DNA from: Minisyncoccota bacterium
GTDB lineage: Bacteria; Patescibacteriota; Minisyncoccia; Phycocordibacterales; Zambryskibacteraceae
Assembly (NCBI GenBank): GCA_036517475.1
Contig: DATDVZ010000010.1
Coordinates: forward strand, 15,338 to 79,337
DNA length: 64,000 nucleotides
Direction: 5' to 3'
A model generated the notes under the pieces. The model searched no databases. It was given only the letters and a program-made list of their open reading frames with translations, and was not told the origin of the DNA. Below, one piece after another: positions 36,947 through 55,624 of this stretch (position 1 is its first letter; each line of letters starts with the position of its first letter). A program made the position numbers and the translations under genes.

Positions 36947-38422
36947 ATGCTAAATGATTTGTTAAAAGATTTGCTTATTGTCTCTGGATTAGCCTTTCTT
37001 CTAGGAATAGCAACCTCTTCTTTTATTAACTTGGGTTTAGTGTTTGCCTTATTCATTTTATTTTTGGGAGTAATAATCACTGCCTATACATTGATCTTTG
37101 TTGAATCTGAAAGCAGAAATATTTTTAAGATAGTCGCTCTAGCACTAATATTTTTCTCACTAGGGCTAGCCAGATATGATTTAAAAGAGAGATACAACCC
37201 AGATCCAAAATTAATTTCAGCTATAAACTCTAAAACTGAAATTATTGGTGTAGTTGTAGAAGAGCCAAAATATAAAAATACATATCGTGAATACATAATT
37301 AAAACAGAGGCTGGAGATAAAATTTTAGTTAGAGCGGAAGTATATCCAGAATATAGATACGGCGATAGGATCAAATTCAGAGGCAAACTTGAAAAGCCTA
37401 AAAATTTTGAAGATGAGCGAGGAAAAACCTTTGATTATAGCTCTTTCCTAGCTAAAGAAGATATTTACTTTATTCTCTCATTTGCTAAAGGAGAGTTTAT
37501 TGAGAATGACCAGGGTTCTAAGTTAAAATCCACTCTTCTTACTTTTAAAAGTCAGTTGAAGGAAAGTTATGAAGCAAGAGTGGGTGAACCCGCTTCATCT
37601 TTACTTGGTGGAATTCTTCTTGGTTTTGACGAAATTGGCAAAGAATGGGAGGAAATTTTTCGTCAGATCGGAATAATTCATATTATAGTGCTCTCAGGTT
37701 ACAACATTACTATTATTGCAGATTCAATCTATTGGCTCTTATCCCGTATTAAGTACTTATCAAAAAAATGGATACTTTCCACAGAGTTAATCGGAATAAT
37801 TTTATTTGTAATTATGGTAGGAGGGACTCCTTCAATTATACGCGCCGCCCTAATGGCGCTTCTGGTTCTGCTCGCTCGCTATACAGGCAGAACTTTTCTA
37901 GCTGGCAGGGCGCTTCTGGCGGCTGCTTCCTTTATGGTTTTGTGGAACCCTAAAGTTTTAGTTTTTGATACGGGATTCCAGCTTTCATTTCTTGCTACAG
38001 CCGGATTAATCTGGGTGACACCTCTCTTAAAAAACAAACTAAACTGGATCACTGAAAAATTTGCCTTGCGCAATATTGTTACTGATACAATCTCAACGCA
38101 AATTCTGGTTTTACCACTTCTTCTTTATAAAACTGGATTATTTTCAGTAGTATCCATTCCGGCAAATATTCTTGTTCTTCCAGCAGTTCCCTTTGCCATG
38201 TTTTTTGGATTTTTAACAGGTATAATGGGCCTAATATCTTCAATCGCTGCGGTTCCTTTTGCATTTATTTCACAAATTTTGCTTGACTACATATTGAAAA
38301 TCTCAGAGTTGTCCGCCTCTTTGCCTTTATCTTCAGTTTCAGTGGCAGAGTTTCCGTTGATTTTTACACTTTTTATTTATTTAGCTTACTGCTTATTTTA
38401 TTTAAAAATACGGACAAAATGA
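36947..38422 (+). CDS. comEC: ComEC/Rec2-family competence channel protein (no beta-lactamase domain)
   Basis: 491 aa polytopic; GIIHIIVLSGYNITII competence motif. Confidence 0.7.
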   Translation: MLNDLLKDLLIVSGLAFLLGIATSSFINLGLVFALFILFLGVIITAYTLIFVESESRNIFKIVALALIFFSLGLARYDLKERYNPDPKLISAINSKTEIIGVVVEEPKYKNTYREYIIKTEAGDKILVRAEVYPEYRYGDRIKFRGKLEKPKNFEDERGKTFDYSSFLAKEDIYFILSFAKGEFIENDQGSKLKSTLLTFKSQLKESYEARVGEPASSLLGGILLGFDEIGKEWEEIFRQIGIIHIIVLSGYNITIIADSIYWLLSRIKYLSKKWILSTELIGIILFVIMVGGTPSIIRAALMALLVLLARYTGRTFLAGRALLAAASFMVLWNPKVLVFDTGFQLSFLATAGLIWVTPLLKNKLNWITEKFALRNIVTDTISTQILVLPLLLYKTGLFSVVSIPANILVLPAVPFAMFFGFLTGIMGLISSIAAVPFAFISQILLDYILKISELSASLPLSSVSVAEFPLIFTLFIYLAYCLFYLKIRTK

Positions 38423-39213
38423 TCTTCCATAAGAAAAAGTCATTAGGCCAAAATTTCCTTATAAATAAAGGGATTCTGGAGATAATTGCCAAAGAAGCAG
38501 AAATAAAAAAGGGGGAGATTGTAGTTGAAGTGGGCCCAGGTAGTGGGTATCTAACTCAAAGTCTTCTTGAGGCAGGAGCAGTAGTATTTGCGATAGAAAA
38601 AGATAACCGCCTGATACAAATTTTAAATGAAAAATTTACCAAAAAAATAAAAAATAAAAGATTAATTTTGATTAATGATGATATTCTAAAATTTAATTTT
38701 GCAAAATTAGTCAGAAGTAAAAAGTATAAAATTGTTGCAAATATTCCTTATTATATAACTGGTGCCTTGTTCAAAAAAATCTTTTCTCAAAAAAATCTAC
38801 CGAGTCTGGTTGTTCTTACGCTCCAGAAAGAGGTTGCAAAAAGAATAATTGTAATGGATGGTAAAGAAAGCATTTTATCAATTTCAGTTAAAGCATATGG
38901 CAAGCCAAAAATTGTAAAAATTGTCTCACGGGGAAGTTTTTCACCTGTGCCGAGTGTTGATTCTGCGATATTAAAAATTACCGATATCTCAAAAAACTTT
39001 TTTAAGGAATTTCCAGAGGAGAAATTTTTTAGTATTTTACATGCTGGATTTTCTTCAAAAAGAAAATTTTTAATTAGTAATCTTCAAAAAATTGAAAGTA
39101 AAGAGAAATTAGAAAAAATCTTTAACAGACTAAATATAAACAAAAAAATCCGCGCAGAAGATCTGGATTTAAATGAATGGAAAAAATTAACCACCATGCT
39201 TCATGATCTATGA
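38419..39213 (+). CDS. rsmA: 16S rRNA A1518/A1519 dimethyltransferase
   Basis: KSLGQNFLINKGIL, VVEVGPGSGYLT SAM motif. Confidence 0.9.
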   Translation: MIFHKKKSLGQNFLINKGILEIIAKEAEIKKGEIVVEVGPGSGYLTQSLLEAGAVVFAIEKDNRLIQILNEKFTKKIKNKRLILINDDILKFNFAKLVRSKKYKIVANIPYYITGALFKKIFSQKNLPSLVVLTLQKEVAKRIIVMDGKESILSISVKAYGKPKIVKIVSRGSFSPVPSVDSAILKITDISKNFFKEFPEEKFFSILHAGFSSKRKFLISNLQKIESKEKLEKIFNRLNINKKIRAEDLDLNEWKKLTTMLHDL

Positions 39214-39251
39214 TCTATGTTCTATGTTCTATGTTCTATGTTCTATGGTAA
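39196..39251. repeat. heptamer tandem array (atgcttc atgatct x2 atgttct x4 atggtaa) between convergent rsmA and the 39243 gene
   Basis: 8 units; overlaps the TGA of rsmA and the TAG of the minus-strand gene. Confidence 0.85.
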
Positions 39252-39662
39252 CGCTCCCGGCGCGCTTGTGCCCACTCTGGCAATTTGGCCAAATGAAGGA
39301 AGCGGGACACAAAAAGGAGGAAAACCAATCCAACATGATTGTACTGCCGGTACATAGTCACCCAGATGTGCTGTGGTTGGAATTCCAATAAAAAAATTGG
39401 CAAATAGAGTACTGATGCCAAGATTAAATGTCAGGGCTCCCGCAAAAGGAAAGGGTACCGGGGCGGGGTAAAGTGGGGCCATAAATATCCATAATCCAGG
39501 GGGTGGACAGGTACATGGAATAAAAAACTGAACAAACCCCCCAAAAGGGATACCTGTCGCAATATTTGATCCAGCCTGCCCAAAAGCCGAAAATGGAATC
39601 ACAAATATAAATATGATCAAAAATATTATTATTTTTTTTCTTGTAGATTGTTCCTTGTTCAT
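39243..39662 (-). CDS. hypothetical hydrophobic Pro/Phe-rich protein
   Basis: 139 aa, signal-like N-term. Confidence 0.3.
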   Translation of the reverse strand: MNKEQSTRKKIIIFLIIFIFVIPFSAFGQAGSNIATGIPFGGFVQFFIPCTCPPPGLWIFMAPLYPAPVPFPFAGALTFNLGISTLFANFFIGIPTTAHLGDYVPAVQSCWIGFPPFCVPLPSFGQIARVGTSAPGALP

Positions 39663-39672
39663 TGCTCCTTGT

Positions 39673-40701
39673 CTAATTAATTCTTAGTATAACCTTTTGG
39701 GGGTTAAGCGTCACACCGTGGGAGTTTTTTACAAAGAAATACAAATCAATTGACTGGCCCTGAAGATATTTAAATGCTTTTGCAAAATCACTTGCCTTTG
39801 GAAAATCCGAGAGATGAATTTTTATTTCACCCCCATTTGATACAACCCCTCCTAGATTTCCCAGAGACGACCAAACTTCATTTGAAGATTCAAAGTTGTC
39901 CCCTCTTAAAATTATTACATCCCCCAAACTTGAAACAGAGATAACTGAAGTTGAATTAAATGTCGGCGGATTCGTGGGATCTGGGGTCACTGTAAAAAAT
40001 TTCTCTTTAATCTGGTTTCTGCTGTTTCCTCTTTCATTCTCAATCCAGATATTATATTTACCAAGTTCGACGCTTGAAGGAACAATGAATTTCAAATTTT
40101 TACCCTCGCTGCTTTCCAAATTCTCCACAATTTTTTTATCGTCAAAATAAATTGAATTATTTTTTGTAAAATACCAACCTGTTATCTCAACAGTATCTCC
40201 CGGAGCTGCTTCAATTTTTGAAAAATTCAAAACCTGCGGTGGCTGTAAAAATAATTTATTAGTCAGAGGTTGTAAATCTGAATTCTGAAACTTTTGGTTT
40301 TGGTTTTCTGGTAACTGTGTGTTTGTTGTTTGTTGTTTGTTGTTAGTTGTTAGTTCATTTAGCTTTTTTCTCGTTAGTGGCCCCACATAACCAGTGCCTA
40401 CAAAACTTGTGTCATTTCCCACAATTTCTTCCCTGTAAAGATTTTGAAAACGTATCACAGCATCAAGTGTAAGTTTGCCGAAATATGTCGTTTCATTACC
40501 AAATGAGCCGTAGCCATTGTTAGAAACGATAGTCTTTGAATAACTGTTTAATATTTTCTGTAATTGCTTAACGTCTTCGACGTTATCTCCAATTCTTAAA
40601 TTACGGCTAAAAATAAAGTTCTGTTGGGCTTTGGAATCAGGAATCACGAATGAAGAATAAAGAATAAAAATTAAAGTAACCAGTAAAAATCTTCTAAGCA
40701 T
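39673..40701 (-). CDS. secreted protein with N-terminal peptidoglycan-binding-like domain and IPT/TIG-like repeats
   Basis: 342 aa; LRIGDNVEDVKQLQKILNS...GKLTLDAVIRFQ. Contains the TTNNKQQTTNTQ low-complexity stretch. Confidence 0.45.
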   Translation of the reverse strand: MLRRFLLVTLIFILYSSFVIPDSKAQQNFIFSRNLRIGDNVEDVKQLQKILNSYSKTIVSNNGYGSFGNETTYFGKLTLDAVIRFQNLYREEIVGNDTSFVGTGYVGPLTRKKLNELTTNNKQQTTNTQLPENQNQKFQNSDLQPLTNKLFLQPPQVLNFSKIEAAPGDTVEITGWYFTKNNSIYFDDKKIVENLESSEGKNLKFIVPSSVELGKYNIWIENERGNSRNQIKEKFFTVTPDPTNPPTFNSTSVISVSSLGDVIILRGDNFESSNEVWSSLGNLGGVVSNGGEIKIHLSDFPKASDFAKAFKYLQGQSIDLYFFVKNSHGVTLNPQKVILRIN

Positions 40702-45585: not shown

Positions 45586-46335
45586 ATGACTTTCACACAA
45601 CAACAAAAAAAAACTGCCTACATTTCGCTTAACCCAAGTGTTCAGTATTTTATAACTGACCCGGAAAGCAGAGAAATTTCAGAGAAAATTTCAAAACAAT
45701 ACTCACTTGATTTTGATCAGACAGATAATCTTGATGAGGAGATAGACAATACAATTTTAGGCCTCCAAAGTTTTAGAGAAATGATTATTAATCTTAGACA
45801 AAAACTTGGATTATCGGACGATAAAATAATTGAACTTGCTCGTGATCTTAAACAACAAATCTTTGACAAGTTGGATGAAATTAAAAAAGGAGAAATACAA
45901 TATCAAATTCCGGAAACTTTTATTTCGACACCCACACAGTTGAAAGCGAAAATTAACCCACCAACAACCTACAACTCACAACCAACAACTTATAAAGAAC
46001 CCAATCAAACAAATACTAAGCAAAATGCTTTGGAAAGGATGGATGGAGTTTTTAATAAGACAGCGCCGGCGCCGGGGAATTTACCGAGTCAACCAACAAC
46101 CGACAACAAACAACAAACAACAAACTTTCAAATTCCGAAAACTAAAGTAGTGGAGGAATATCATCAGGAATTAAAACCACCAACAACTAACAACCAACAA
46201 CTTACAACAAATAATAGACAACCTAATCAACCTATACAAAAATCACCCATGGAGAGGAAATTGGAGCAAAATCCAAATGTTATGAAAAGTTCATATGGTA
46301 ATAAACCAGATCCTTATCGCGAGTCACCACAATGA
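45586..46335 (+). CDS. Gln/Asn/Thr-rich low-complexity protein
   Basis: 249 aa; contains QLTTNNRQPNQP. Confidence 0.35.
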   Translation: MTFTQQQKKTAYISLNPSVQYFITDPESREISEKISKQYSLDFDQTDNLDEEIDNTILGLQSFREMIINLRQKLGLSDDKIIELARDLKQQIFDKLDEIKKGEIQYQIPETFISTPTQLKAKINPPTTYNSQPTTYKEPNQTNTKQNALERMDGVFNKTAPAPGNLPSQPTTDNKQQTTNFQIPKTKVVEEYHQELKPPTTNNQQLTTNNRQPNQPIQKSPMERKLEQNPNVMKSSYGNKPDPYRESPQ

Positions 46336-46745
46336 TATTCAAATTTCCGCAATATATTGATGTTGAAGACAAAATTTTCGGGCCGCTTACTATAAAGCAG
46401 TTCATTTATCTTCTAGGTGGGGCTGGAATTATCGTCACCATTTTCAGATTCTTGCCGGGTTTTATAGCCTTTTTTCTTGCTATACCAATAATTGCCCTGT
46501 CGCTTTCGCTTGCGTTTTGGAGAGTCAATAATCAACCTTTTATAAGTGTATTGGAATCCTTTATGAAATATGTCTTTGGGGAAAAGCTCTATATATGGAA
46601 AAAAGAAGCAAAAAAAATATCAAAAAAAGAACAAGAATCTATTAATCCACAGGTTTATATTCCAAAAGTTACTGATGGAAACCTTAAAAACTTGAAATGG
46701 AACATTGACGTTAAAAAATCACAGGACATAGAACCTGAGACATAG
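46332..46745 (+). CDS. small 2-TM protein, VirB3-like
   Basis: 137 aa; GPLTIKQFIYLLGGAGIIVTIFRFLPGFIAFFLAIPIIAL. Confidence 0.35.
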   Translation: MIFKFPQYIDVEDKIFGPLTIKQFIYLLGGAGIIVTIFRFLPGFIAFFLAIPIIALSLSLAFWRVNNQPFISVLESFMKYVFGEKLYIWKKEAKKISKKEQESINPQVYIPKVTDGNLKNLKWNIDVKKSQDIEPET

Positions 46746-46824
46746 AACATGGAACATGGGGCATGAGGCATGGAACATAAAACATGGAGCGTAAAACATT
46801 AAACATATAACAAGGAATATGGAA
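46727..46824. repeat. heptamer array, 14 units (catagaa cctgaga catagaa catggaa catgggg catgagg catggaa cataaaa catggag cgtaaaa cattaaa catataa caaggaa tATGgaa)
   Basis: begins inside the last codons of the 46332 gene (TAG in catagaa) and ends with the ATG of the 46819 gene. Confidence 0.85.
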
Positions 46825-47169
46825 AAAAGTTACAATGAGAGGTTGAAAAAATTAATAAATCAGTATGTCCATAAAGTTTATGATTACAGCGTTAACTTTC
46901 CAAAGAATGAAGTATTTGGACTAACTTCTCAACTCAAACGCTCTGCAATGTCTGTCGCATTGAACTATGTCGAGGGATACGCCAGAAGAAGAAAGCTTGT
47001 TTTTAAAAATTTTATTGAAATTTCCTACGGCTCATTGAAAGAAAGTGTTTATTTAGTTGAATTCTCGTATAATAGAAAGTACCTGAATATAAACCAATAT
47101 AAGGAACTAAACAATTTAGCAGAAGAAGTAGCTAAAATGCTTTGGGGAATTATGGATAAGTTAGACTAA
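46819..47169 (+). CDS. four-helix-bundle protein (23S rRNA intervening-sequence protein family)
   Basis: 116 aa; FPKNEVFGLTSQLKRSAMSVALNYVEGYARR...ISYGSLKES. Confidence 0.6.
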   Translation: MEKSYNERLKKLINQYVHKVYDYSVNFPKNEVFGLTSQLKRSAMSVALNYVEGYARRRKLVFKNFIEISYGSLKESVYLVEFSYNRKYLNINQYKELNNLAEEVAKMLWGIMDKLD

Positions 47170-47203
47170 TGGTCTATGTTCTATGATAAATGATCTATGA
47201 CTT
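47169..47203. repeat. heptamer array, 5 units (atggtct atgttct atgataa atgatct ATGactt)
   Basis: the last unit is the start codon of the 47197 gene. Confidence 0.8.
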
Positions 47204-47832
47204 TAAACGCAAAAGCAACACAAGAGTTTGTTCCAATTGAAGAGGTGCGTGACGGCATTATTGTCATGAAAGACAGCGGAATGCGCGCTGTTCTTCTGTG
47301 TTCTTCTCTGAATTTTTCACTCAAATCAGATGATGAGCGAACAGCAACCCTTCTGCAATTTCAGGACTTTTTGAATTCTCTGGATTTTTCGATTCAAATT
47401 TATATTGAGTCCCGCCGGCTTGATATCAGGCCGTATCTTGCGCTGTTGGAGAACCAGAAAAAGAATCAGACAAACAGTCTGATGAAAATACAGATTCAGG
47501 AATATATTGAATTTGTTAAAAGTTTCACTGAACAAACAAATATAATGAAAAAAAGTTTTTATGTTGTCGTGCCGTTTTCTCCAGCGATAATAAGACAAAA
47601 AGGAAACATTCTTTCAAACATATTGCCGTCACAGAAACAAACAAGCGAGAAAGAGTCCGCAAACTTTGAGGAGAGTCGTACCCAAATTGAACAGCGTCTC
47701 TCGGTTGTTGAACAAGGACTCATGCGCTGCGGTATAAGAGTTGCCAGACTCGGTACAGAAGCAATAGTTGAATTGTTCTATAAAATATTTAATCCGGGGG
47801 AAAGCGAAAAACCGATTCAGTTGAAGACATAG
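47197..47832 (+). CDS. VirB4/TraC N-terminal-domain-like protein (N-terminal fragment of a split VirB4)
   Basis: 211 aa; FVPIEEVRDGIIVMKDSGMRAVLLCSSLNFSLKSDDE...RLGTEAIVELFYKIFNP. Confidence 0.5.
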   Translation: MTLNAKATQEFVPIEEVRDGIIVMKDSGMRAVLLCSSLNFSLKSDDERTATLLQFQDFLNSLDFSIQIYIESRRLDIRPYLALLENQKKNQTNSLMKIQIQEYIEFVKSFTEQTNIMKKSFYVVVPFSPAIIRQKGNILSNILPSQKQTSEKESANFEESRTQIEQRLSVVEQGLMRCGIRVARLGTEAIVELFYKIFNPGESEKPIQLKT

Positions 47833-47947
47833 AACATTAAACATGAAACATAGAATATTAGACATAGAACATAAAACACTTGAATTGAAAGTCCGAATTC
47901 AAAGCATGTTTCATGCTTCATGTTCCATGACTAATGATAAATGACCA
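47828..47947. repeat. inverted heptamer array: 8 units in catagaa phase, central gaattgaaagtccgaattc, then 6 units in atgttct phase ending in the ATG at 47941
   Basis: imperfect palindrome about 120 bp. The TAG stop of the upstream gene is inside the first unit. Confidence 0.85.
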
Positions 47948-49770
47948 CAATGGGAATATTTGATTTTTTAAAAAAGAAAAAAAGTGAAAATTCATTAGCG
48001 AGTATATCTATTCTGCCCCATGAAATTTATGAGGCAAATACTCTTGATTTAAAGGATATTATCGCTCCCAGCGCCCTTAAGGTCGGGCCAAAGGATATTA
48101 ACCTCGGCGAAAAGATAATGCGCTCTTTCTTTGTTATTTCCTATCCTTCTTCTTTGGGAGAAAGCTGGTTTGCGCCGATAATAAATTTGGACAGAGTTTT
48201 TGATGTTGCTATATTCGTCCACCCTATTGAAACTTCAAAAATTCTCAAGAAATTTCAAAAAAAAGTCGCAGAAGTCCAGAGTCAGATCCATGAAAGAGAA
48301 GAGAAGGGGCTTGTGCGCGATCCCATGCTTGATATTGCCTACCAAGACCTGGAAAATCTGCGGGATCAGCTGCAGCAAGCGCAAGAAAAACTATTTGACG
48401 TAGGATTATATATTTCAATTTACGCTGATAACGAAAATGAGCTGGATAAAATTGAATCTGAAATTAAGTCCATTCTTGAGTCCAAACTTGTCTATATCAA
48501 GCCGGCTCTTTTCCAGCAACAAGAAGCATTTAAAAGCATCCTGCCTATGGGAGATGATATTATTGCGGTAAATTCAAAACTTAACTCCTCCCCGCTTTCA
48601 TCACTTTTCCCTTTTATATCATTTGATCTTTCTACCGAGGAGGGAATTCTTTATGGCATTAACAGACATAACTCATCTCTTGTACTTTTTGACCGTTTTT
48701 CGCTTGAAAATTACAACTCAATAATTTTTGCAAAATCCGGTGCCGGCAAAAGCTATGCCACCAAGCTTGAAATCCTAAGGACACTAATGTTTGATACGGA
48801 AGTCATAGTAATTGACCCGGAAAGAGAATATGAATTCATGGCTGACGCCATCGGCGGAAGATATTTTAAAATTTCTCTGACCTCCGAACACCACATCAAC
48901 CCTTTTGATCTTCCGCCACCCGGACCGGATGAATCATTCGCCAATATTTTGCGCTCCAATATTATTAATCTTGTCGGACTCTTCCGCCTGATGATGGGGG
49001 GTCTCAGCGCCGAGGAAGATGCAATAATTGACAGGGCAATTACTGAAACTTACGCTCTCAAAGACATAACACCAGATTCGGATTTTACAAATATTGAACC
49101 TCCGCTTCTTACTGACTTTGAGCTAGTTCTATCTGGAATGGAGGGCGGAGCATCTTTGGCCCAGCGTCTTACAAAATACACAAAGGGTACGTGGGCCGGG
49201 TTTATAAACCGGCCGACAAATGTGGATATAAACAAGAAATTTGTTGTTTTTTCTTTGCGTGACATGGAAGACGAACTCAAGCCCATTGCAATGTATATCG
49301 TCACTCATTACATCTGGAGTGCTGTTAGAAAAGAACTTAAAAAAAGGCTTTTGGTTATTGACGAAGCTTGGTGGATGATGAAATCGGAAGATACCGCCTC
49401 ATTTGTGCTCAATATTGCAAAAAGGGGTAGAAAATATTTCTTAGGTCTTGCCACAATAACGCAGGATGTGGACGATTTCCTTGCCTCTCCCTACGGCACT
49501 CCTATCATTACCAATTCCTCAATTCAACTGCTCTTGAAACAGTCTCCGACAGCCATTGACCGCCTTCAGGGGGTTTTTAATCTGACTGATGAAGAAAAAT
49601 ATCTTTTACTTGAATCAAATGTTGGGGAAGGAATATTTTTTGCCGGGCTAAAGCACGTGGCGATAAAAATCGTTGCCTCTTATACCGAAGATCAGATTAT
49701 AACTTCCGATCCTGCCCAGATATTGGCAATACAAAAAGCAAAACAAGAACTCGAATCTGCTTCCGCGTAA
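47941..49770 (+). CDS. VirB4/TrbE/CagE-family T4SS ATPase (C-terminal ATPase part)
   Basis: 609 aa; Walker A SGAGKSYATK, Walker B LLVIDEAWWMM, RGRKYFLGLATITQ. Confidence 0.7.
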   Translation: MTTMGIFDFLKKKKSENSLASISILPHEIYEANTLDLKDIIAPSALKVGPKDINLGEKIMRSFFVISYPSSLGESWFAPIINLDRVFDVAIFVHPIETSKILKKFQKKVAEVQSQIHEREEKGLVRDPMLDIAYQDLENLRDQLQQAQEKLFDVGLYISIYADNENELDKIESEIKSILESKLVYIKPALFQQQEAFKSILPMGDDIIAVNSKLNSSPLSSLFPFISFDLSTEEGILYGINRHNSSLVLFDRFSLENYNSIIFAKSGAGKSYATKLEILRTLMFDTEVIVIDPEREYEFMADAIGGRYFKISLTSEHHINPFDLPPPGPDESFANILRSNIINLVGLFRLMMGGLSAEEDAIIDRAITETYALKDITPDSDFTNIEPPLLTDFELVLSGMEGGASLAQRLTKYTKGTWAGFINRPTNVDINKKFVVFSLRDMEDELKPIAMYIVTHYIWSAVRKELKKRLLVIDEAWWMMKSEDTASFVLNIAKRGRKYFLGLATITQDVDDFLASPYGTPIITNSSIQLLLKQSPTAIDRLQGVFNLTDEEKYLLLESNVGEGIFFAGLKHVAIKIVASYTEDQIITSDPAQILAIQKAKQELESASA

Positions 49771-49807: not shown

Positions 49808-50536
49808 ATGAACCTTGATTCAGATATAAATGAAAATATAGGGAGAGGCCACTCTGCTCTCATCAGAAGTCCGGAAATTGACAGGCAGAGGGCAGAACAG
49901 AAAAAGCGCGCCGGACAAGTTCTTCAGAGTGCCGGTAAAGTCCTATCAAAAACGGGGGAAGGAGCAATAGTGGGAGTTCCAATGCAAGTTGCAGGAACAA
50001 TTTTAAGAAATAGAAACAATAAACAAAGAACGGGGGACGAGGAACAAGAAACAATTGGAACAACAGTGCCAAGTATTACAAGTGAATTTTCAAAGGATTC
50101 TAAAATTGTAAACGAATCGGCACAAAGATCGGAAAAAAGAAATAGAGTGACATTAACAACTACATATCTAATGTTTGGAACGGCTCTCTTTTTTGATTCC
50201 CTGCAATTTGTATTCAGTTTTGTGCCATTTCTTGGCTGGATATTGTCGGGCATCGTTGGTATTTTTGCCTGGTTAACTTTCTATACATGGACCTCAATAA
50301 AGGGCTGGGGCTGGTCAGATACTGTCAAAAAGATTGCAATTAATTGGGCATTGCCTTTGGTAGAAGTTTTTCCCATTATTAACGGCCTGCCACTGTGGAC
50401 ATTGCGAGTAGCAATACAAATTGCAATTATTAAAGCAGAAGATGTCCTATACAACAGTACTCAAGGAAAGGTGGATGTAAAAAATATACTCAATTTCAAA
50501 AGCAAGTATGGGGCAATCTTGAAACCTAGAACATAG
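49808..50536 (+). CDS. membrane protein (3-4 TM in the C-terminal half)
   Basis: 242 aa; stop TAG inside catagaa. Confidence 0.35.
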   Translation: MNLDSDINENIGRGHSALIRSPEIDRQRAEQKKRAGQVLQSAGKVLSKTGEGAIVGVPMQVAGTILRNRNNKQRTGDEEQETIGTTVPSITSEFSKDSKIVNESAQRSEKRNRVTLTTTYLMFGTALFFDSLQFVFSFVPFLGWILSGIVGIFAWLTFYTWTSIKGWGWSDTVKKIAINWALPLVEVFPIINGLPLWTLRVAIQIAIIKAEDVLYNSTQGKVDVKNILNFKSKYGAILKPRT

Positions 50537-50574
50537 AACATGCTTCATGCTCTATGTTTTATGTTCCATGATCA
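50525..50574. repeat. inverted heptamer array (cctagaa catagaa | atgcttc atgctct atgtttt atgttcc atgatca)
   Basis: seen directly. Confidence 0.8.
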
Positions 50575-50592
50575 ACAGGTTATAATTAAAAT

Positions 50593-51582: not shown

Positions 51583-52708
51583 CTCACAACTTACAACCAA
51601 CAACCGACAACCAAAATTGCTTTTGATTTTATTTTTATTTCTCTTCCTTTTTCCTTTTTCCTTTGTCAGCGCTGAAATACCACAGTCTGCCAGAGGTAAG
51701 CAATGTTTTGTTTTTGGATATGGCGGAGCAGCAAGTCTTTTCCCCTGTGAAAATCCACCAGCACAAGTGGTCGGCAGAGACTGTGTTGTTTGTGGTAACC
51801 CATCAAATGGTCAGTGTCCAACGCCAATTTCTACAACAAACGGAGGTGGGACAACATTCATATGCGAAGTAGGAACTGCTACTCCACCACCAAACAATCC
51901 TCCACCAACAAGTCTAGGATATATTCCATTGGCCCCACTTCCAGGTGATACACCAGGTCAACCTATAAAAGTTACTGACTATATTCCGAAGGTTTTTAGA
52001 CTTGCCATTGCTGTAGCAGGAGCACTGGCAGTAATTATGATTACAATCGGCGGAATTGAATACATTACTTCCGAAACTATTAACGGCAAAAAGGACGGCA
52101 AAGAAAAAATAACAAACGCTCTGGTTGGACTTCTTTTGGCAATCGGTTCCTGGATTATTTTAAATACGATTGCTCCCGACAGATTCACCCAATTTGATTT
52201 GAGTACGATAAGAACACCGCCACAAATTACAACCGCAACAACCACACCACCATCGCCTGGAAGCTGGCCGAGTGATCAGGGCGTCAGACAAAGGCTTGGG
52301 CTTAGCGGAATATCCATTAATAATAGTAACTGCACTTATATTGGACAGGTCGGATGCACTAGCGTCTATGGATTGAGAGAGAATATTATAAGTGGTCTTG
52401 AGCAGTTAGTGCGGGATTGTTTCGGCCAGTGCAATATCGTAATAACCGGCGGCACTGAATGGTGGCTGCACGGTAACAGAATTGATATCAATTCTACCCA
52501 GCATCGACCAGGTGGAAATGCTGTTGATTTGTCAAAAAATGATTCAGTATTAAATAACTTCATCATGCGTTTCCCGAAGATAGGTTCAGCAACTGGCGGA
52601 AACGGCTGCGCTACAGGCCAAGGATACAATGTTGGCGGAAAAATTTATGTTGATGAGATAAGTTCAGGGGCAAGCACCGGTCCTCATTGGCATATATGTT
52701 TTCCATAA
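51569..52708 (+). CDS. fusion: VirB2/TrbC-like two-helix membrane hairpin plus C-terminal peptidase M15-like (VanY/L-Ala-D-Glu peptidase-type) domain
   Basis: 379 aa; Cys-rich secreted N-region, FRLAIAVAGALAVIMITIGGIEYITS...ALVGLLLAIGSWIILNTI, then STQHRPGGNAVD (SxHxxGxAxD) and GPHWH. Confidence 0.45.
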   Translation: MAITNSQLTTNNRQPKLLLILFLFLFLFPFSFVSAEIPQSARGKQCFVFGYGGAASLFPCENPPAQVVGRDCVVCGNPSNGQCPTPISTTNGGGTTFICEVGTATPPPNNPPPTSLGYIPLAPLPGDTPGQPIKVTDYIPKVFRLAIAVAGALAVIMITIGGIEYITSETINGKKDGKEKITNALVGLLLAIGSWIILNTIAPDRFTQFDLSTIRTPPQITTATTTPPSPGSWPSDQGVRQRLGLSGISINNSNCTYIGQVGCTSVYGLRENIISGLEQLVRDCFGQCNIVITGGTEWWLHGNRIDINSTQHRPGGNAVDLSKNDSVLNNFIMRFPKIGSATGGNGCATGQGYNVGGKIYVDEISSGASTGPHWHICFP

Positions 52709-53976: not shown

Positions 53977-54078
53977 TTAAAAATATAAAAATCAAAATAA
54001 AAGTAATGGTAGTTATTTAGACACTAGGTTTTGTTAACAATTTTGAATTTTATAAATCGTAAATTTTAAATCTTAAGT

Positions 54079-54792
54079 CTACACTTTGAATTTTCTTCTG
54101 ATGAGTTTTTCCTGCACTAACGTAAAAATATTGCTTGTAAACCAATATAGAGCCACCACTCCTGAAATACTATAGGAAATAAAAAGGACAATCACAGGAA
54201 AAAAATATCTCATTTGGATATTCATACTTCTGGCCAGATCACTCTGAAAACTGCGTTTGCCGTCTGTGGATATTGGCGGGGCGGAAACCCGCATCTGGAA
54301 AAAGCTCGATACACCAGCAGCAATAGCAAGTATCCAGCTCTTGCCAGTGATATCAATAAATCCGAGAAAGTTCATGTTAATTTTTTCTGGCAAAGGAATA
54401 AATGAATATTTAAGTGTCTCATCAACAGCCGGTAGACCAGATTTTAAAAATATAAAATAGAGAGCAAAAATTATCGGAAGTTGTATGAGAATGGGTAAAA
54501 TACTTCCAAAGGGGCTGACTTTTTTATTTTTATACAATTCCCATGTTCTCTTAGCTTGTTCCTGCTTGTCAGTTTTATATTTTTCTCTAATTTTGGTGAG
54601 CTCAGGCTCAATCTTTTTCATTTCAATTCCTGCAACTGTAGCTTTGCGTGATAAGGGAAAAAGTATGAATTTCACAATAAGAGTAAAGAATATGATAGCG
54701 AAACCAGCATCCAACCAAGGAAAAGTATGTATAAAGAGAATAAGGCCATTATATAGAGGCTGATAGAAGACATCATGGAAAATAGATTTCAT
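54079..54792 (-). CDS. yidC: membrane protein insertase YidC (short form)
   Basis: 237 aa; LFPLSRKATVAGIEMKKIEPELTKI...PILIQLPIIFALY. Confidence 0.85.
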   Translation of the reverse strand: MKSIFHDVFYQPLYNGLILFIHTFPWLDAGFAIIFFTLIVKFILFPLSRKATVAGIEMKKIEPELTKIREKYKTDKQEQAKRTWELYKNKKVSPFGSILPILIQLPIIFALYFIFLKSGLPAVDETLKYSFIPLPEKINMNFLGFIDITGKSWILAIAAGVSSFFQMRVSAPPISTDGKRSFQSDLARSMNIQMRYFFPVIVLFISYSISGVVALYWFTSNIFTLVQEKLIRRKFKV

Positions 54793-55202: not shown

Positions 55203-55251
55203 AAATAAACCATTTGTATTTAAATGTATTTAAAAGTTTTAAATCTGGAAA

Positions 55252-55386
55252 TTAAACAGAAATTAACTTTCTGCCTTTTTGCCTTCGTCTCTTTAGTGTT
55301 CGTCGTCCGCCTGAGGATTTTTTTCTTTTAATAAACCCGTGAGCTCGGCTTCTTTTTCTTTTTTTTGGTTGATATGTACGAGACAT
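55252..55386 (-). CDS. rpmH: 50S ribosomal protein L34 (44 aa; not in the ORF track)
   Basis: [44 protein letters not shown]; classic rpmH-rnpA-yidC order. Confidence 0.85.
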
Positions 55387-55388
55387 AG

Positions 55389-55433
55389 AACTAACATAAT
55401 AACAAACAACTTATAACTTACAACTAGTAACTG
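55389..55433 (-). repeat. heptamer array 5' of rpmH on the minus strand (cagttac tagttgt aagttat aagttgt ttgttat tatgtta gttct-ATG)
   Basis: AGTT/TGTT core at 7-nt spacing. Confidence 0.5.
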
Positions 55434-55624
55434 AATTTCTTAAAAAAGTTTGCTTATTTGCCTAAATTTTTATTGATAAAAATTCAAACAGGTCAAGTTA
55501 TGATGTCCACTTTTTTTCCACTGTTTATCAACATAAAACATGCTTTTTTTCAAGTTTTTTAATATTTGGAGAAGTATATACTACGGGTACTATAACCCTG
55601 TTAATTTCATTCTTTTACTAAAAC

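What the first reader, a model, noticed from the sequence alone, without database searches (positions are those of the whole stretch)
39196..39251. Outlying copy of the ATGTTCT heptamer array between convergent rsmA and a secreted-protein gene
Eight perfect or near-perfect units (atgatct x2, atgttct x4) sit 7.5 kb away from the T4SS-cluster arrays. They overlap both convergent stop codons (TGA of rsmA, TAG of the 39243 minus-strand gene). This shows the repeat family is not restricted to promoters. It marks the left edge of the secreted-protein block that leads into the T4SS-like cluster, and may be a boundary or recombination site for that accessory region.
Basis: seen in the sequence. Interest (0 to 1): 0.5.

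Follow-up and report, generated by a model that had tools for sequence, protein, structure and literature searches.

The report
Solo heptamer array from IVS-like family
The 56-base ATGTTCT repeat between rsmA and a small secreted-protein gene is real, but it is not an island boundary: it is an unpaired copy of the 7-base repeat arms that bracket a small "23S rRNA intervening-sequence protein" gene and form hairpins between genes of the neighbouring secretion operon.

Summary
Window 39196-39251 holds eight ATG-phased heptamers (ATGCTTC, ATGATCT x2, ATGTTCT x4, ATGGTAA). They fill the whole 29-nt gap between convergent rsmA and a 139-aa gene and supply both stop codons.

The "accessory-region boundary" reading is not supported. 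The order RsmA ... T4SS-like cluster ... YidC-RnpA-DnaA is conserved in 51 of 55 related Parcubacteria loci. Relatives with the same gene content lack the array.

The array has the same unit as the inverted arms around the S23p/IVP gene (46723-47203) and as two ORF-less hairpins (47822-47947, 50523-50574). All 29 IVP genes examined are bracketed by inverted 7-periodic arms, 28 of them from candidate-phyla-radiation (CPR) lineages, each with its own unit. That is the architecture described for the Coxiella 23S rRNA intervening sequence, whose stem is cut by RNase III.

The rsmA copy is a solo arm. It is unstructured on both strands. It begins at the TAG stop of the 139-aa gene. It is conserved with 11 units in the closest sister species.

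It most likely arose by 7-nt slippage or conversion. It probably acts, if at all, at the RNA level.

Function is inferred, not shown. A neutral by-product remains a serious rival.

The parts
39196..39251 (.). Solo heptamer array. On the + strand: ATGCTTC ATGATCT x2 ATGTTCT x4 ATGGTAA. On the - strand (p139 mRNA sense): TAG-(AACATAG)n. It fills the whole rsmA/p139 intergenic gap.
   Evidence: unstructured on both strands (z +0.64 and +0.95); identical in 6 assemblies; orthologous 11-unit array in L096
38419..39213 (+). rsmA/ksgA (16S rRNA dimethyltransferase). The last 5 codons (MLHDL) and the TGA stop are encoded by the first array units.
   Evidence: Pfam PF00398 E 1.5e-51; sequence; alignment of C-termini
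39243..39662 (-). 139-aa gene with a predicted signal peptide (p139). Its TAG stop is the first unit boundary of the array. It is 89% identical in sister species L096.
39640..39675 (-). Degenerate remnant of a second, same-orientation array at the junction of the p342 stop and p139 start (ACAAGGA GCAATGA ACAAGGA ACAATCT). The orthologous site in L096 (3445-3507) holds 9-10 clean AGAACAT/AGAGCAT units (9 by the regex; about 10 by direct reading) ending in the p130 ATG.
39673..40701 (-). 342-aa gene with a predicted signal peptide and a PG_binding_1 match (p342), upstream partner of p139 in the minus-strand module.
46723..46815 (+). 5' arm of the IVP cassette: about 13 units of (R)ACAT(R)(R) type. 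It includes the TAG stop of PrgI (46743-46745).
46819..47169 (+). S23p/IVP gene (23S rRNA intervening-sequence protein, four-helix bundle).
   Evidence: Pfam PF05635 E 1.8e-26; PDB 2gsc E 5e-9 and 2rld
47169..47203 (+). 3' arm of the IVP cassette (ATGGTCT ATGTTCT ATGATAA ATGATCT ATGACTT). The last ATG (47197) is the start codon of the TraC-like gene.
47822..47947 (+). ORF-less inverted pair of arrays, from the TraC-like stop (TAG 47830-32) to the VirB4 start (ATG 47941).
   Evidence: fold z -1.64
50523..50574 (+). ORF-less inverted pair after the stop of the 242-aa gene (TAG 50534-36), upstream of the 329-aa gene. It forms a strong hairpin.
   Evidence: fold -19.7 kcal/mol, z -4.07

Best explanation
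The array is an unpaired ('solo') arm of this lineage's IVS-like heptamer-repeat family.

In this genome one unit (AGAACAT, complement ATGTTCT) builds three things: the inverted terminal arms around the S23p/IVP gene, two ORF-less hairpins between cistrons of the T4SS-like operon, and this copy.

Shown:
- It starts exactly at the TAG stop of the 139-aa gene, in the same orientation as every 5' arm of the operon.
- Read from that side it carries TAG in all three frames.
- Read from the rsmA side it is open, except for two T-to-A variant units (ATGATCT) that supply rsmA's TGA.
- It has no partner arm and no secondary structure.
- It grows by duplication of neighbouring units.
- It has persisted at this junction with the same unit in a sister species, with 11 rather than 8 units.

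Inferred:
- It arose by 7-nt replication slippage and/or conversion from the cassette arms.
- It acts, if at all, on RNA, as a single-stranded repeat tail on the p139 (and rsmA) transcripts.
- That tail could pair with the complementary arms covering the TraC-like, VirB4 and p329 start codons, giving an RNase III-type duplex as in rRNA IVS stems. Alternatively it could be bound by whatever factor recognises the arms.
- Either way the p342-p139 module would be tied to the processing of the T4SS-like operon.
For: Same unit at five loci only: 17 matches against 0.71 expected. Arms run from stop codon to start codon.

All 29 IVP genes examined (28 from CPR lineages, plus L181) have inverted 7-periodic arms. 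For the 24 compared, matched flanks share 13.0 reverse-complement 6-mers against 3.5 for mismatched flanks, and lag-7 identity is 0.40-0.42 against about 0.29.

Paired arrays fold: z -4.1 in the window, and -10.4 and -5.4 in relatives. The solo array does not fold (z +0.64 and +0.95).

The sister species (L096 and L220, same sample) has the same unit at the same p139 stop with 11 units, at the p342/p139 junction, and around its orthologous IVP gene.

The A(T/C)GTTCT unit follows the IVP-b orthologues in L094 and L218.

Predicted trans duplexes: p139 tail against the 3' arms, -21.5 to -37.6 kcal/mol; the strongest two are well beyond the shuffles, the VirB4 arm (-21.5) is not. The rsmA tail against the 5' arms gives -25 to -63.

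Precedent: the Coxiella 23S IVS has an S23p ORF, terminal inverted repeats forming a stem cut by RNase III, and strain-variable tandem heptameric repeats (PMC4990558).

Of 120 unrelated metagenome contigs chosen only for (ATGTTCT)3, 10 have the array within about 110 nt of an IVP gene.
Against: No expression, cleavage or binding data exist for this organism.

Two relatives that have IVP cassettes and the same gene order (L217, L218) have no array at this junction, so it is dispensable.

The second array, at the p342/p139 junction, has decayed in the window, which shows weak constraint.

Conservation rests on a single sister species.

Complementarity to the other arrays follows automatically from sharing a repeat unit, so the duplex energies are not independent evidence.

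No RNase III gene was found in the 64-kb window; only a motif scan was run.

The metagenome association has no control: no comparable contig set chosen without regard to arrays was examined.
Confidence: 0.5

Rival explanations
1. Neutral by-product. It would be a heptanucleotide long simple-sequence repeat made by replication slippage, seeded from the cassette arms or from a chance ATG...ATG 7-nt repeat. It is tolerated because a tail-to-tail junction is a harmless place, and it has no function of its own.
For: Period-7 arrays are over-represented in this clade in general: 14 strict arrays against 3 or fewer for any other period from 5 to 12 in 1.39 Mb. They also occur in coding loops, for example the variable loop of rsmA with genome-specific units. 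Variant units sit next to each other (ATGATCT x2), as expected from slippage. Copy number differs between species, 8 against 11. The array is absent in L217, L218 and 50 more distant relatives. The sibling array at 39640-39675 has decayed. Heptanucleotide repeats are the commonest LSSR class in many bacteria, and polymerase slippage has been proposed as the cause (Mrazek 2007, as cited in PMC4679880).
Against: The same unit is kept at the same stop codon in two species whose RsmA proteins are only 66% identical. Orientation relative to the p139 stop matches every 5' arm in the operon. No copy-number differences appear among 6 assemblies of the population.
Confidence: 0.3
2. Protein-binding site array. 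The cassette-encoded S23p/IVP protein (a homopentamer in solved relatives) or another factor would bind the heptamer units on RNA or DNA. The solo array would be an extra operator that puts p139 and rsmA 3' ends under the same control as the T4SS-like operon.
For: Tandem periodicity is not needed for a hairpin, yet it is universal around IVP genes. Each IVP orthologue group keeps its own unit family: IVP-b with A(T/C)GTTCT in the window, L094, L218 and L220, and subfamily 2 with ACAACCA in L024, L033 and L038. ORF-less hairpins often use the unit of a resident IVP gene (L094, L038, L063). Solved relatives 2gsc and 2rld are deposited with five chains each, and the X. campestris protein is reported to be a homopentamer (PMC4990558).
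Against: Arms and gene are physically linked, so a shared history explains the correlation. IVP proteins next to AGAACAT arrays in other phyla are no closer to the window protein (29-36% identity) than CPR IVPs with other units (30-38%). Several loci have arrays but no IVP gene within 20 kb (L085, L060, L052, L018). Coxiella S23p is reportedly not expressed in vivo (PMC4990558).
Confidence: 0.15
3. Boundary or recombination (att-like) site of a variably present accessory region running from 39.2 to 54 kb.
For: The array lies at the left end of the minus-strand module. The interval between RsmA and p317 is variable among relatives: empty, p139 only, p139 plus p342, or other genes. In L096 and the window, p139 is flanked by same-orientation arrays that could in principle recombine.
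Against: The T4SS-like cluster and its flanks are syntenic in 51 of 55 (RsmA) and 57 of 57 (DnaA) loci. Relatives with identical content lack the array. There is no integrase or tRNA at the junction and no composition shift. The presence of p139/p342 does not correlate with arrays.
Confidence: 0.03
4. Phase-variation switch or bidirectional intrinsic terminator.
For: A 7-nt unit is not a multiple of 3, and the array overlaps two gene ends. Convergent genes need termination.
Against: The stop for p139 is at the first unit and TAG recurs in all three frames. The rsmA stop is fixed by the ATGATCT units. Gain or loss of units therefore changes neither protein (sequence). Copy number is identical in 6 assemblies. 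There is no hairpin on either strand and no terminator-like site at the junction.
Confidence: 0.02

Closest known systems
23S rRNA intervening sequences (IVS) carrying an S23p/IVP ORF, e.g. Coxiella burnetii IVS (PMC4990558)
   Same: Both have an S23p/PF05635 ORF bracketed by terminal inverted repeats that form a stem. Both have tandem heptameric repeats in the terminal region next to the ORF start, with repeat number varying between strains or species. ORF-less versions exist. The window's family has all of this at 46723-47203, 47822-47947 and 50523-50574.
   Different: Here the elements sit between protein-coding cistrons (T4SS-like operon; dnaK-dnaJ, scpA and clpB in other CPR lineages), not in 23S rRNA helix 45. 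The arms are built almost entirely of heptamer units and run from the stop codon to the start codon. The rsmA copy is a single arm with no ORF and no stem, so it is not itself an IVS. RNase III cleavage is untested here.
TAACTGA heptamer direct repeats of Beggiatoaceae, Cyanobacteria and Bacteroidetes (MacGregor 2015, PMC4679880)
   Same: Both are short tandem heptamers at gene boundaries, typically ending at or next to a start codon or overlapping an upstream stop. One orientation gives stop codons in all three frames. Sets 'between stop codons' are reported in a cyanobacterium. A post-transcriptional role has been proposed but not shown.
   Different: The unit differs. Those repeats are genome-wide (169 sets), whereas here there are 5 loci in 64 kb, all in one gene neighbourhood. 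No link to IVP genes or inverted pairing was described there.
Long simple-sequence repeats (LSSR) of 5-11 nt, heptanucleotide class (Mrazek et al. 2007, as summarised in PMC4679880); cyanobacterial STRR heptamers (own knowledge)
   Same: Head-to-tail heptamers longer than chance; evolution by slippage; copy number differs between relatives.
   Different: LSSR is a descriptive class without defined position or orientation. This array shares its unit and its stop-codon register with structured elements nearby.
REP/BIME- or MITE-like intergenic hairpins (own knowledge)
   Same: Short imperfect palindromic elements, present or absent at orthologous intergenic sites in related genomes and co-transcribed with operons.
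   Different: The internal 7-nt tandem periodicity, the element-specific unit, the association with a four-helix-bundle ORF rather than a transposase, and solo non-palindromic copies.

Membership tests
Heptanucleotide long simple-sequence repeat (LSSR) | Head-to-tail copies of a 5-11 nt unit, longer than expected by chance in that sequence | tested here: met
   TRF 6.4 copies, 97% matches; 0 of 100 shuffles reach the observed count; period-7 specificity
Heptanucleotide long simple-sequence repeat (LSSR) | Copy number changes by slippage between strains or species | tested here: inconclusive
   8 units in the window against 11 in sister species L096, but identical in 6 assemblies of the same population. 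Logan contigs and L219 break inside the array, so reads were not examined.
IVS-type element (S23p/IVP cassette) | Contains an S23p/PF05635 ORF or is an ORF-less derivative lying between two arms | tested here: not met
   There is no ORF and no second arm at 39196-39251. The feature is met by the family's other copies at 46723-47203.
IVS-type element (S23p/IVP cassette) | Terminal inverted repeats that pair into a stem | tested here: not met
   The solo array folds no better than shuffles on either strand (z +0.64 and +0.95). Paired copies do fold (z -4.07).
IVS-type element (S23p/IVP cassette) | Tandem heptameric repeats in the terminal region | tested here: met
   Same unit as the cassette arms. 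Heptameric repeats are described in the Coxiella IVS (PMC4990558).
IVS-type element (S23p/IVP cassette) | Located in a 23S (or 16S) rRNA gene | tested here: not met
   It lies between protein-coding genes. There is no rRNA or other Rfam match at 36-56 kb.
IVS-type element (S23p/IVP cassette) | Excised or cleaved by RNase III | not testable with these tools
   This needs RNA end mapping or in vitro cleavage.
Intrinsic (rho-independent) terminator | G+C-rich hairpin followed by a U tract | tested here: not met
   No terminator-like site at the junction; no hairpin
Contingency locus / phase-variable SSR | Change of repeat number alters a reading frame or promoter spacing | tested here: not met
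   Both stops lie at fixed units, and TAG recurs in all frames on the p139 strand. No copy-number variants among assemblies.
Genomic-island boundary / attachment site | The flanked block is variably present; integrase or tRNA nearby; repeat at both ends | tested here: not met
   Synteny in 51 of 55 and 57 of 57 loci. Relatives with the same content lack the array. The nearest tRNAs are at 13.8-16.1 kb. No integrase among the flanking genes.
TAACTGA-type boundary heptamer repeats | Tandem heptamers abutting start or stop codons, with one orientation closed in all three frames | tested here: met
   (AGAACAT)n gives TAG in all three frames, and (ATGTTCT)n is open and gives ATG in all three frames (sequence). 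In 29 cassettes the 5' arms have stops in 2.28 frames on average against 1.28 for the 3' arms.
TAACTGA-type boundary heptamer repeats | Unit TAACTGA, genome-wide distribution | tested here: not met
   The unit is ATGTTCT. There are only 5 loci in 64 kb, all between 39 and 51 kb.

The most novel reading that the evidence does not exclude
S23p/IVP four-helix-bundle genes may be mobile, frame-independent 'cassettes'. Their heptamer-repeat arms would close the upstream gene and open the downstream one, and would be recognised unit by unit by the pentameric protein. The solo array at rsmA/p139 would then be an extra operator that recruits the p342-p139 module into a post-transcriptional regulon of the CPR T4SS-like machinery. 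This would give the long-orphan S23p/IVP family a function and a sequence-specific ligand.
Probability: 0.15. Interest if true: 0.8.

Novelty: new variant of a known kind. Interest (0 to 1): 0.5.

Why it matters
By itself the array is a small lineage-specific repeat and not an island border. Tracing it showed three further things.

- In Parcubacteria and other CPR lineages, S23p/IVP genes sit inside protein-coding operons: the T4SS-like cluster, dnaK-dnaJ, scpA and clpB. These genes were previously known from rRNA intervening sequences.
- They are always bracketed by inverted arrays of an element-specific heptamer that run from stop codon to start codon.
- ORF-less hairpins and solo arms of the same unit also occur.

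In the literature I could search, only the Coxiella IVS paper links S23p with heptameric repeats. If the arms are RNase III or IVP-binding sites, this is a widespread and unrecognised layer of operon processing in CPR bacteria. It would also offer a testable ligand for a protein family of unknown function.

Tried and rejected
- **ATG/stop adaptor idea.** I considered that every unit must carry a start or stop codon. Many relatives use units without ATG (for example L085 AAATACG/TATTTCG), so it survives only as a statistical tendency.
- **Clade-specific unit.** None came from the T4SS clade, so it gave no genome-wide census for this organism.
- **ATG-phased arrays in relatives.** There are none in the 80 loci. 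Only after dropping the unit requirement did the period-7 arrays appear.
- **Strain variant.** Contig L219 (p139 99% identical) ends inside the array and gives no copy number.
- **Rfam.** No match at 36-56 kb.
- **RNase III.** No signature motif in the window; this is uninformative for the whole genome.
- **Protein/unit co-specificity across phyla.** There is no excess similarity between the window IVP and other AGAACAT-associated IVPs.
- **AT-rich period-7 tracts** at the p429/YidC convergent junction (window 54053-80, L048, L036). They are too low in complexity to be counted as family members.

Full report
**1. Observation**

The sequence at 39196-39251 reads ATGCTTC ATGATCT ATGATCT ATGTTCT ATGTTCT ATGTTCT ATGTTCT ATGGTAA. 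TRF reports 39203-39247, period 7, 6.4 copies and 97% matches, the highest-scoring period-7 array in the window. A two-unit pattern with up to 2 mismatches occurs 17 times against 0.71 expected.

Runs of 'ATG every 7 nt' occur 10 times against 0.77 in shuffles, and other periods (4-12) give at most one run each. They lie only at:
- 39196-39251
- 46723-46815
- 47169-47203
- 47822-47947
- 50523-50574
- plus one 3-unit run at 920-940, probably chance

The rsmA ORF (38419-39213; PF00398) ends at TGA 39211-13, inside the second ATGATCT unit. The 139-aa minus-strand ORF (39243-39662) ends at TAG (CTA 39243-45), inside the last units. The 29-nt gap between the two genes is entirely repeat.

The same 8-unit sequence is present in six independent assemblies of the Rifle aquifer population. 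Unitig-style Logan contigs break inside it, as expected for a repeat of k-mer length.

**2. Context**

The genes run in this order:
- RNase H, ComEC, RsmA
- p139(-), p342(-)
- p317, p547, p728, p249
- PrgI, IVP (PF05635, 23S rRNA intervening-sequence protein), TraC-like, VirB4
- p242, p329, T4SS pilin, p429
- YidC(-), RnpA(-), DnaA

In the cluster, arrays in the AGAACAT orientation begin at the TAG stop of the upstream gene (PrgI, TraC-like, p242). Arrays in the ATGTTCT orientation end at the ATG of the next gene (TraC-like, VirB4). The two orientations form inverted pairs.

On the minus strand the rsmA-junction array reads TAG-AACATAGAACAT.... It therefore has the register and orientation of a 5' arm attached to the p139 stop, but no 3' arm follows.

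**3. Is the downstream block accessory?**

No. A scan of species-representative genomes with VirB4 returned 80 loci from Parcubacteria, Paceibacteria and Zambryskibacteria MAGs. RsmA lies upstream of VirB4 in 51 of 55 loci with enough flank. DnaA lies downstream in 57 of 57.

Only the interval between RsmA and p317 varies:
- empty in 14 loci (gap 66-354 nt)
- p139 alone in 3 loci
- p139 plus p342 in about 14 loci
- other genes in the rest

None of the 50 relatives whose RsmA 3' junction was printed has any heptamer array there. Where p139 is present, the two genes abut or overlap tail to tail. Two closer p139 homologues (L217 at 59% identity, L218 at 47%) show the same arrangement.

**4. What the arrays are**

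None of the 80 loci has ATG-phased arrays. Many, however, have period-7 arrays at the same junctions with a different, locus-specific unit, arranged as inverted pairs:

| Locus | 5' unit / 3' unit |
|---|---|
| L085 | AAATACG / TATTTCG |
| L061 | CTTTTAG / CTAAAAG |
| L042 | TAGTTAG / CTTACTA |
| L048 | AAAATGY / CATTTTA |

. Other relatives have the same genes abutting with no insert.

With strict criteria, period 7 gives 14 arrays against 3 or fewer for any other period from 5 to 12 in 1.39 Mb.

An iterative search found 18 IVP genes in 15 of the 80 loci. All lie in the interval from just upstream of PrgI to VirB4, and all are co-oriented with the operon. Every one is bracketed by inverted heptamer arrays.

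For 24 IVP genes, upstream and downstream flanks of the same gene share 13.0 reverse-complement 6-mers, against 3.5 for mismatched pairs. Self-identity at lag 7 is 0.42 and 0.40, against about 0.29 at other lags and 0.26 in controls.

Orthologous IVPs keep their unit family:
- IVP-b (between PrgI and TraC-like): A(T/C)GTTCT in the window, L094, L218 and L220
- IVP subfamily 2: ACAACCA in L024, L033 and L038

.

Three IVP homologues were picked without regard to repeats. They lie in Doudnabacteria (before scpA), Uhrbacteria (between dnaK and dnaJ) and Magasanikbacteria (before clpB). They also sit at intergenic junctions with arms that are clearly heptameric in two cases and AT-rich, period 7-8, in the third.

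Of 120 metagenome contigs (25-69% GC) chosen only for (ATGTTCT)3, 12 carry an IVP gene. Ten of these have the array within about 110 nt of the gene, again with an inverted partner array on the other side. No control set of contigs chosen without regard to arrays was examined, so the excess over background is not quantified.

Paired arrays fold well: window 50515-50585 gives -19.7 kcal/mol (z -4.07), L085 z -10.4 and L061 z -5.4. Window 47815-47950 is weaker, at z -1.64.

**5. Comparison with known systems**

The Coxiella burnetii 23S rRNA IVS is a 428-nt element with an S23p ORF. [quoted passage not shown] S23p of X. campestris is a homopentamer of four-helix bundles (PMC4990558).

The window's IVP matches PDB 2gsc (E 5e-9) and 2rld. 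IVP ORFs have been noted in rRNA insertions of CPR bacteria (PMC11270868).

The cassette at 46723-47203 and the ORF-less hairpins therefore have the IVS architecture, but they sit in mRNA operons.

Tandem heptamers at gene boundaries with stops in all three frames are also known as TAACTGA repeats (PMC4679880). No IVP link was described there. Heptanucleotide repeats are the commonest LSSR class.

No Rfam family matches at 36-56 kb.

**6. The solo array**

It is unstructured on both strands (z +0.64 and +0.95), and there is no terminator-like site at the junction.

(AGAACAT)n carries TAG in all three frames. (ATGTTCT)n is open in all frames. The two ATGATCT variants supply rsmA's TGA. Unit gain or loss therefore changes neither protein, which argues against phase variation. 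So does the identical copy number in six assemblies.

The closest relative found (L096; RsmA 66% and p139 89% identical; same order ComEC-RsmA-p130(-)-p338(-)-p313) has the same unit at the same p139 stop. It has 11 units, ATGTTCT interspersed with ACGTTCT. It also has a second array of 9-10 units in the same orientation between the p342 stop and the p130 start, whose last unit holds the ATG.

The window retains only a degenerate remnant of that second array at 39640-39675.

A contig from the same sample (L220) shows the orthologous IVP-b cassette and the TraC-like/VirB4 hairpin built from the same unit. That L096 and L220 come from one organism is an inference.

The arrays around p139 are thus specific to a small subclade. 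They use the unit of the resident IVP-b cassette, change copy number between species, and can decay.

**7. Mechanism**

Shown:
- family membership by unit and register
- absence of structure
- provision of both stop codons
- growth by local unit duplication
- persistence in one sister species

Inferred:
- origin by slippage or conversion from the cassette arms
- action on RNA, as a single-stranded tail that can pair with complementary arms

The predicted trans duplexes for the p139 tail are -33 kcal/mol against the IVP 3' arm and TraC-like start, and -38 against the p329 arm. The duplex with the VirB4 arm (-21.5) is not beyond the shuffles. The rsmA tail pairs with the 5' arms at -25 to -63. 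These values follow from the shared unit and are not independent evidence.

Pairing would create an RNase III-type duplex. Alternatively the tail could be bound by the factor that recognises the arms.

I give this reading 0.5. A neutral slippage by-product gets 0.3, a specific IVP-binding operator 0.15, and island boundary, phase variation or terminator together about 0.05.

**8. Verdict**

The boundary/recombination interpretation is not supported.

The array itself is a minor, lineage-specific solo repeat. Its family is a new variant of a known kind: IVS-like S23p cassettes with heptamer arms, ORF-less hairpins and solo arms inside protein-coding operons of CPR bacteria. That family is worth a systematic survey.

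Noticed in passing
window 46723-47203: The IVP (PF05635) gene is bracketed by inverted heptamer arrays running from the PrgI stop to the TraC-like start. This is an IVS-like cassette inside a T4SS-like operon. The same design holds for all 18 IVP genes in the 80 related loci, and for IVP genes in dnaK-dnaJ, scpA and clpB contexts in other CPR classes (L221-L223).
   Followed up: yes
window 47822-47947 and 50523-50574: ORF-less inverted heptamer pairs (hairpins) at the TraC-like/VirB4 and p242/p329 junctions. At orthologous junctions relatives have either nothing or a hairpin built from a different heptamer.
   Followed up: yes
window 38642-38682; L018 2168-2193, L041 1626-1662, L061 953-983, L085 2523-2553, L051 1507-1530, L027 1873-1903, L023 2000-2021: Period-7 nucleotide repeats lie inside the rsmA coding sequence, always in the variable loop between the DDIL and ANIPY motifs. 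Units are genome-specific, for example AAGCTAA encoding KLKAKSYKL and AATTTTC encoding FNFQFSIF. This suggests a general 7-nt duplication tendency in these genomes.
   Followed up: partly
window 45964-45990, 46090-46125, 46175-46208, 51585-51614; 40320-40355 (minus-strand gene): ACAACCA-type heptamer arrays lie inside coding regions (p249, the pilin N-terminus and the p342 linker), encoding T/N/Q-rich stretches. The same unit forms the arms of subfamily-2 IVP cassettes in L024, L033 and L038.
   Followed up: partly
L096 2880-2985: In the sister species the RsmA C-terminal segment (AEDLNL.eW.KL) appears twice. The second copy is in another frame and ends with TAG directly at the array. This could be a local duplication or an assembly quirk.
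   Followed up: no
window 39243-40701 versus L014-L093: The minus-strand module p342-p139 between RsmA and p317 is variably present among relatives: absent in 14 loci, p139 alone in 3, both in about 14. p139 is much better conserved (89% to L096) than its neighbours (57-82%).
   Followed up: partly
window 55203-55624: The intergenic region between rnpA and dnaA carries short repeats (TGTATTTAAA x3 at 55215-55244; a 14-nt repeat at 55397-55432). It is a likely oriC. The whole T4SS-like cluster is therefore origin-proximal, and its + strand genes point toward the origin.
   Followed up: no
L154, L104, L157, L097, L187, L192, L180, L198, L181 (metagenome contigs, GC 35-51%): Outside the T4SS clade, IVP genes are flanked by long (AGAACAT)n arrays of up to 11 units, with an inverted partner array such as GTTCTAA on the other side. 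L181 lies next to a response-regulator-like ORF (my reading of the translation; no family search run).
   Followed up: partly
L218 11256-11924: An IS200/IS605-type Y1 transposase gene sits between UvrD and RsmA in one relative. In L094, L217 and L218, UvrD rather than ComEC precedes RsmA.
   Followed up: no
window 54053-54080; L048 8463-8559; L036 15481-15538: AT-rich period-7 tracts lie at the other convergent boundary of the cluster (p429 to YidC). They are too low in complexity to assign to the family.
   Followed up: partly
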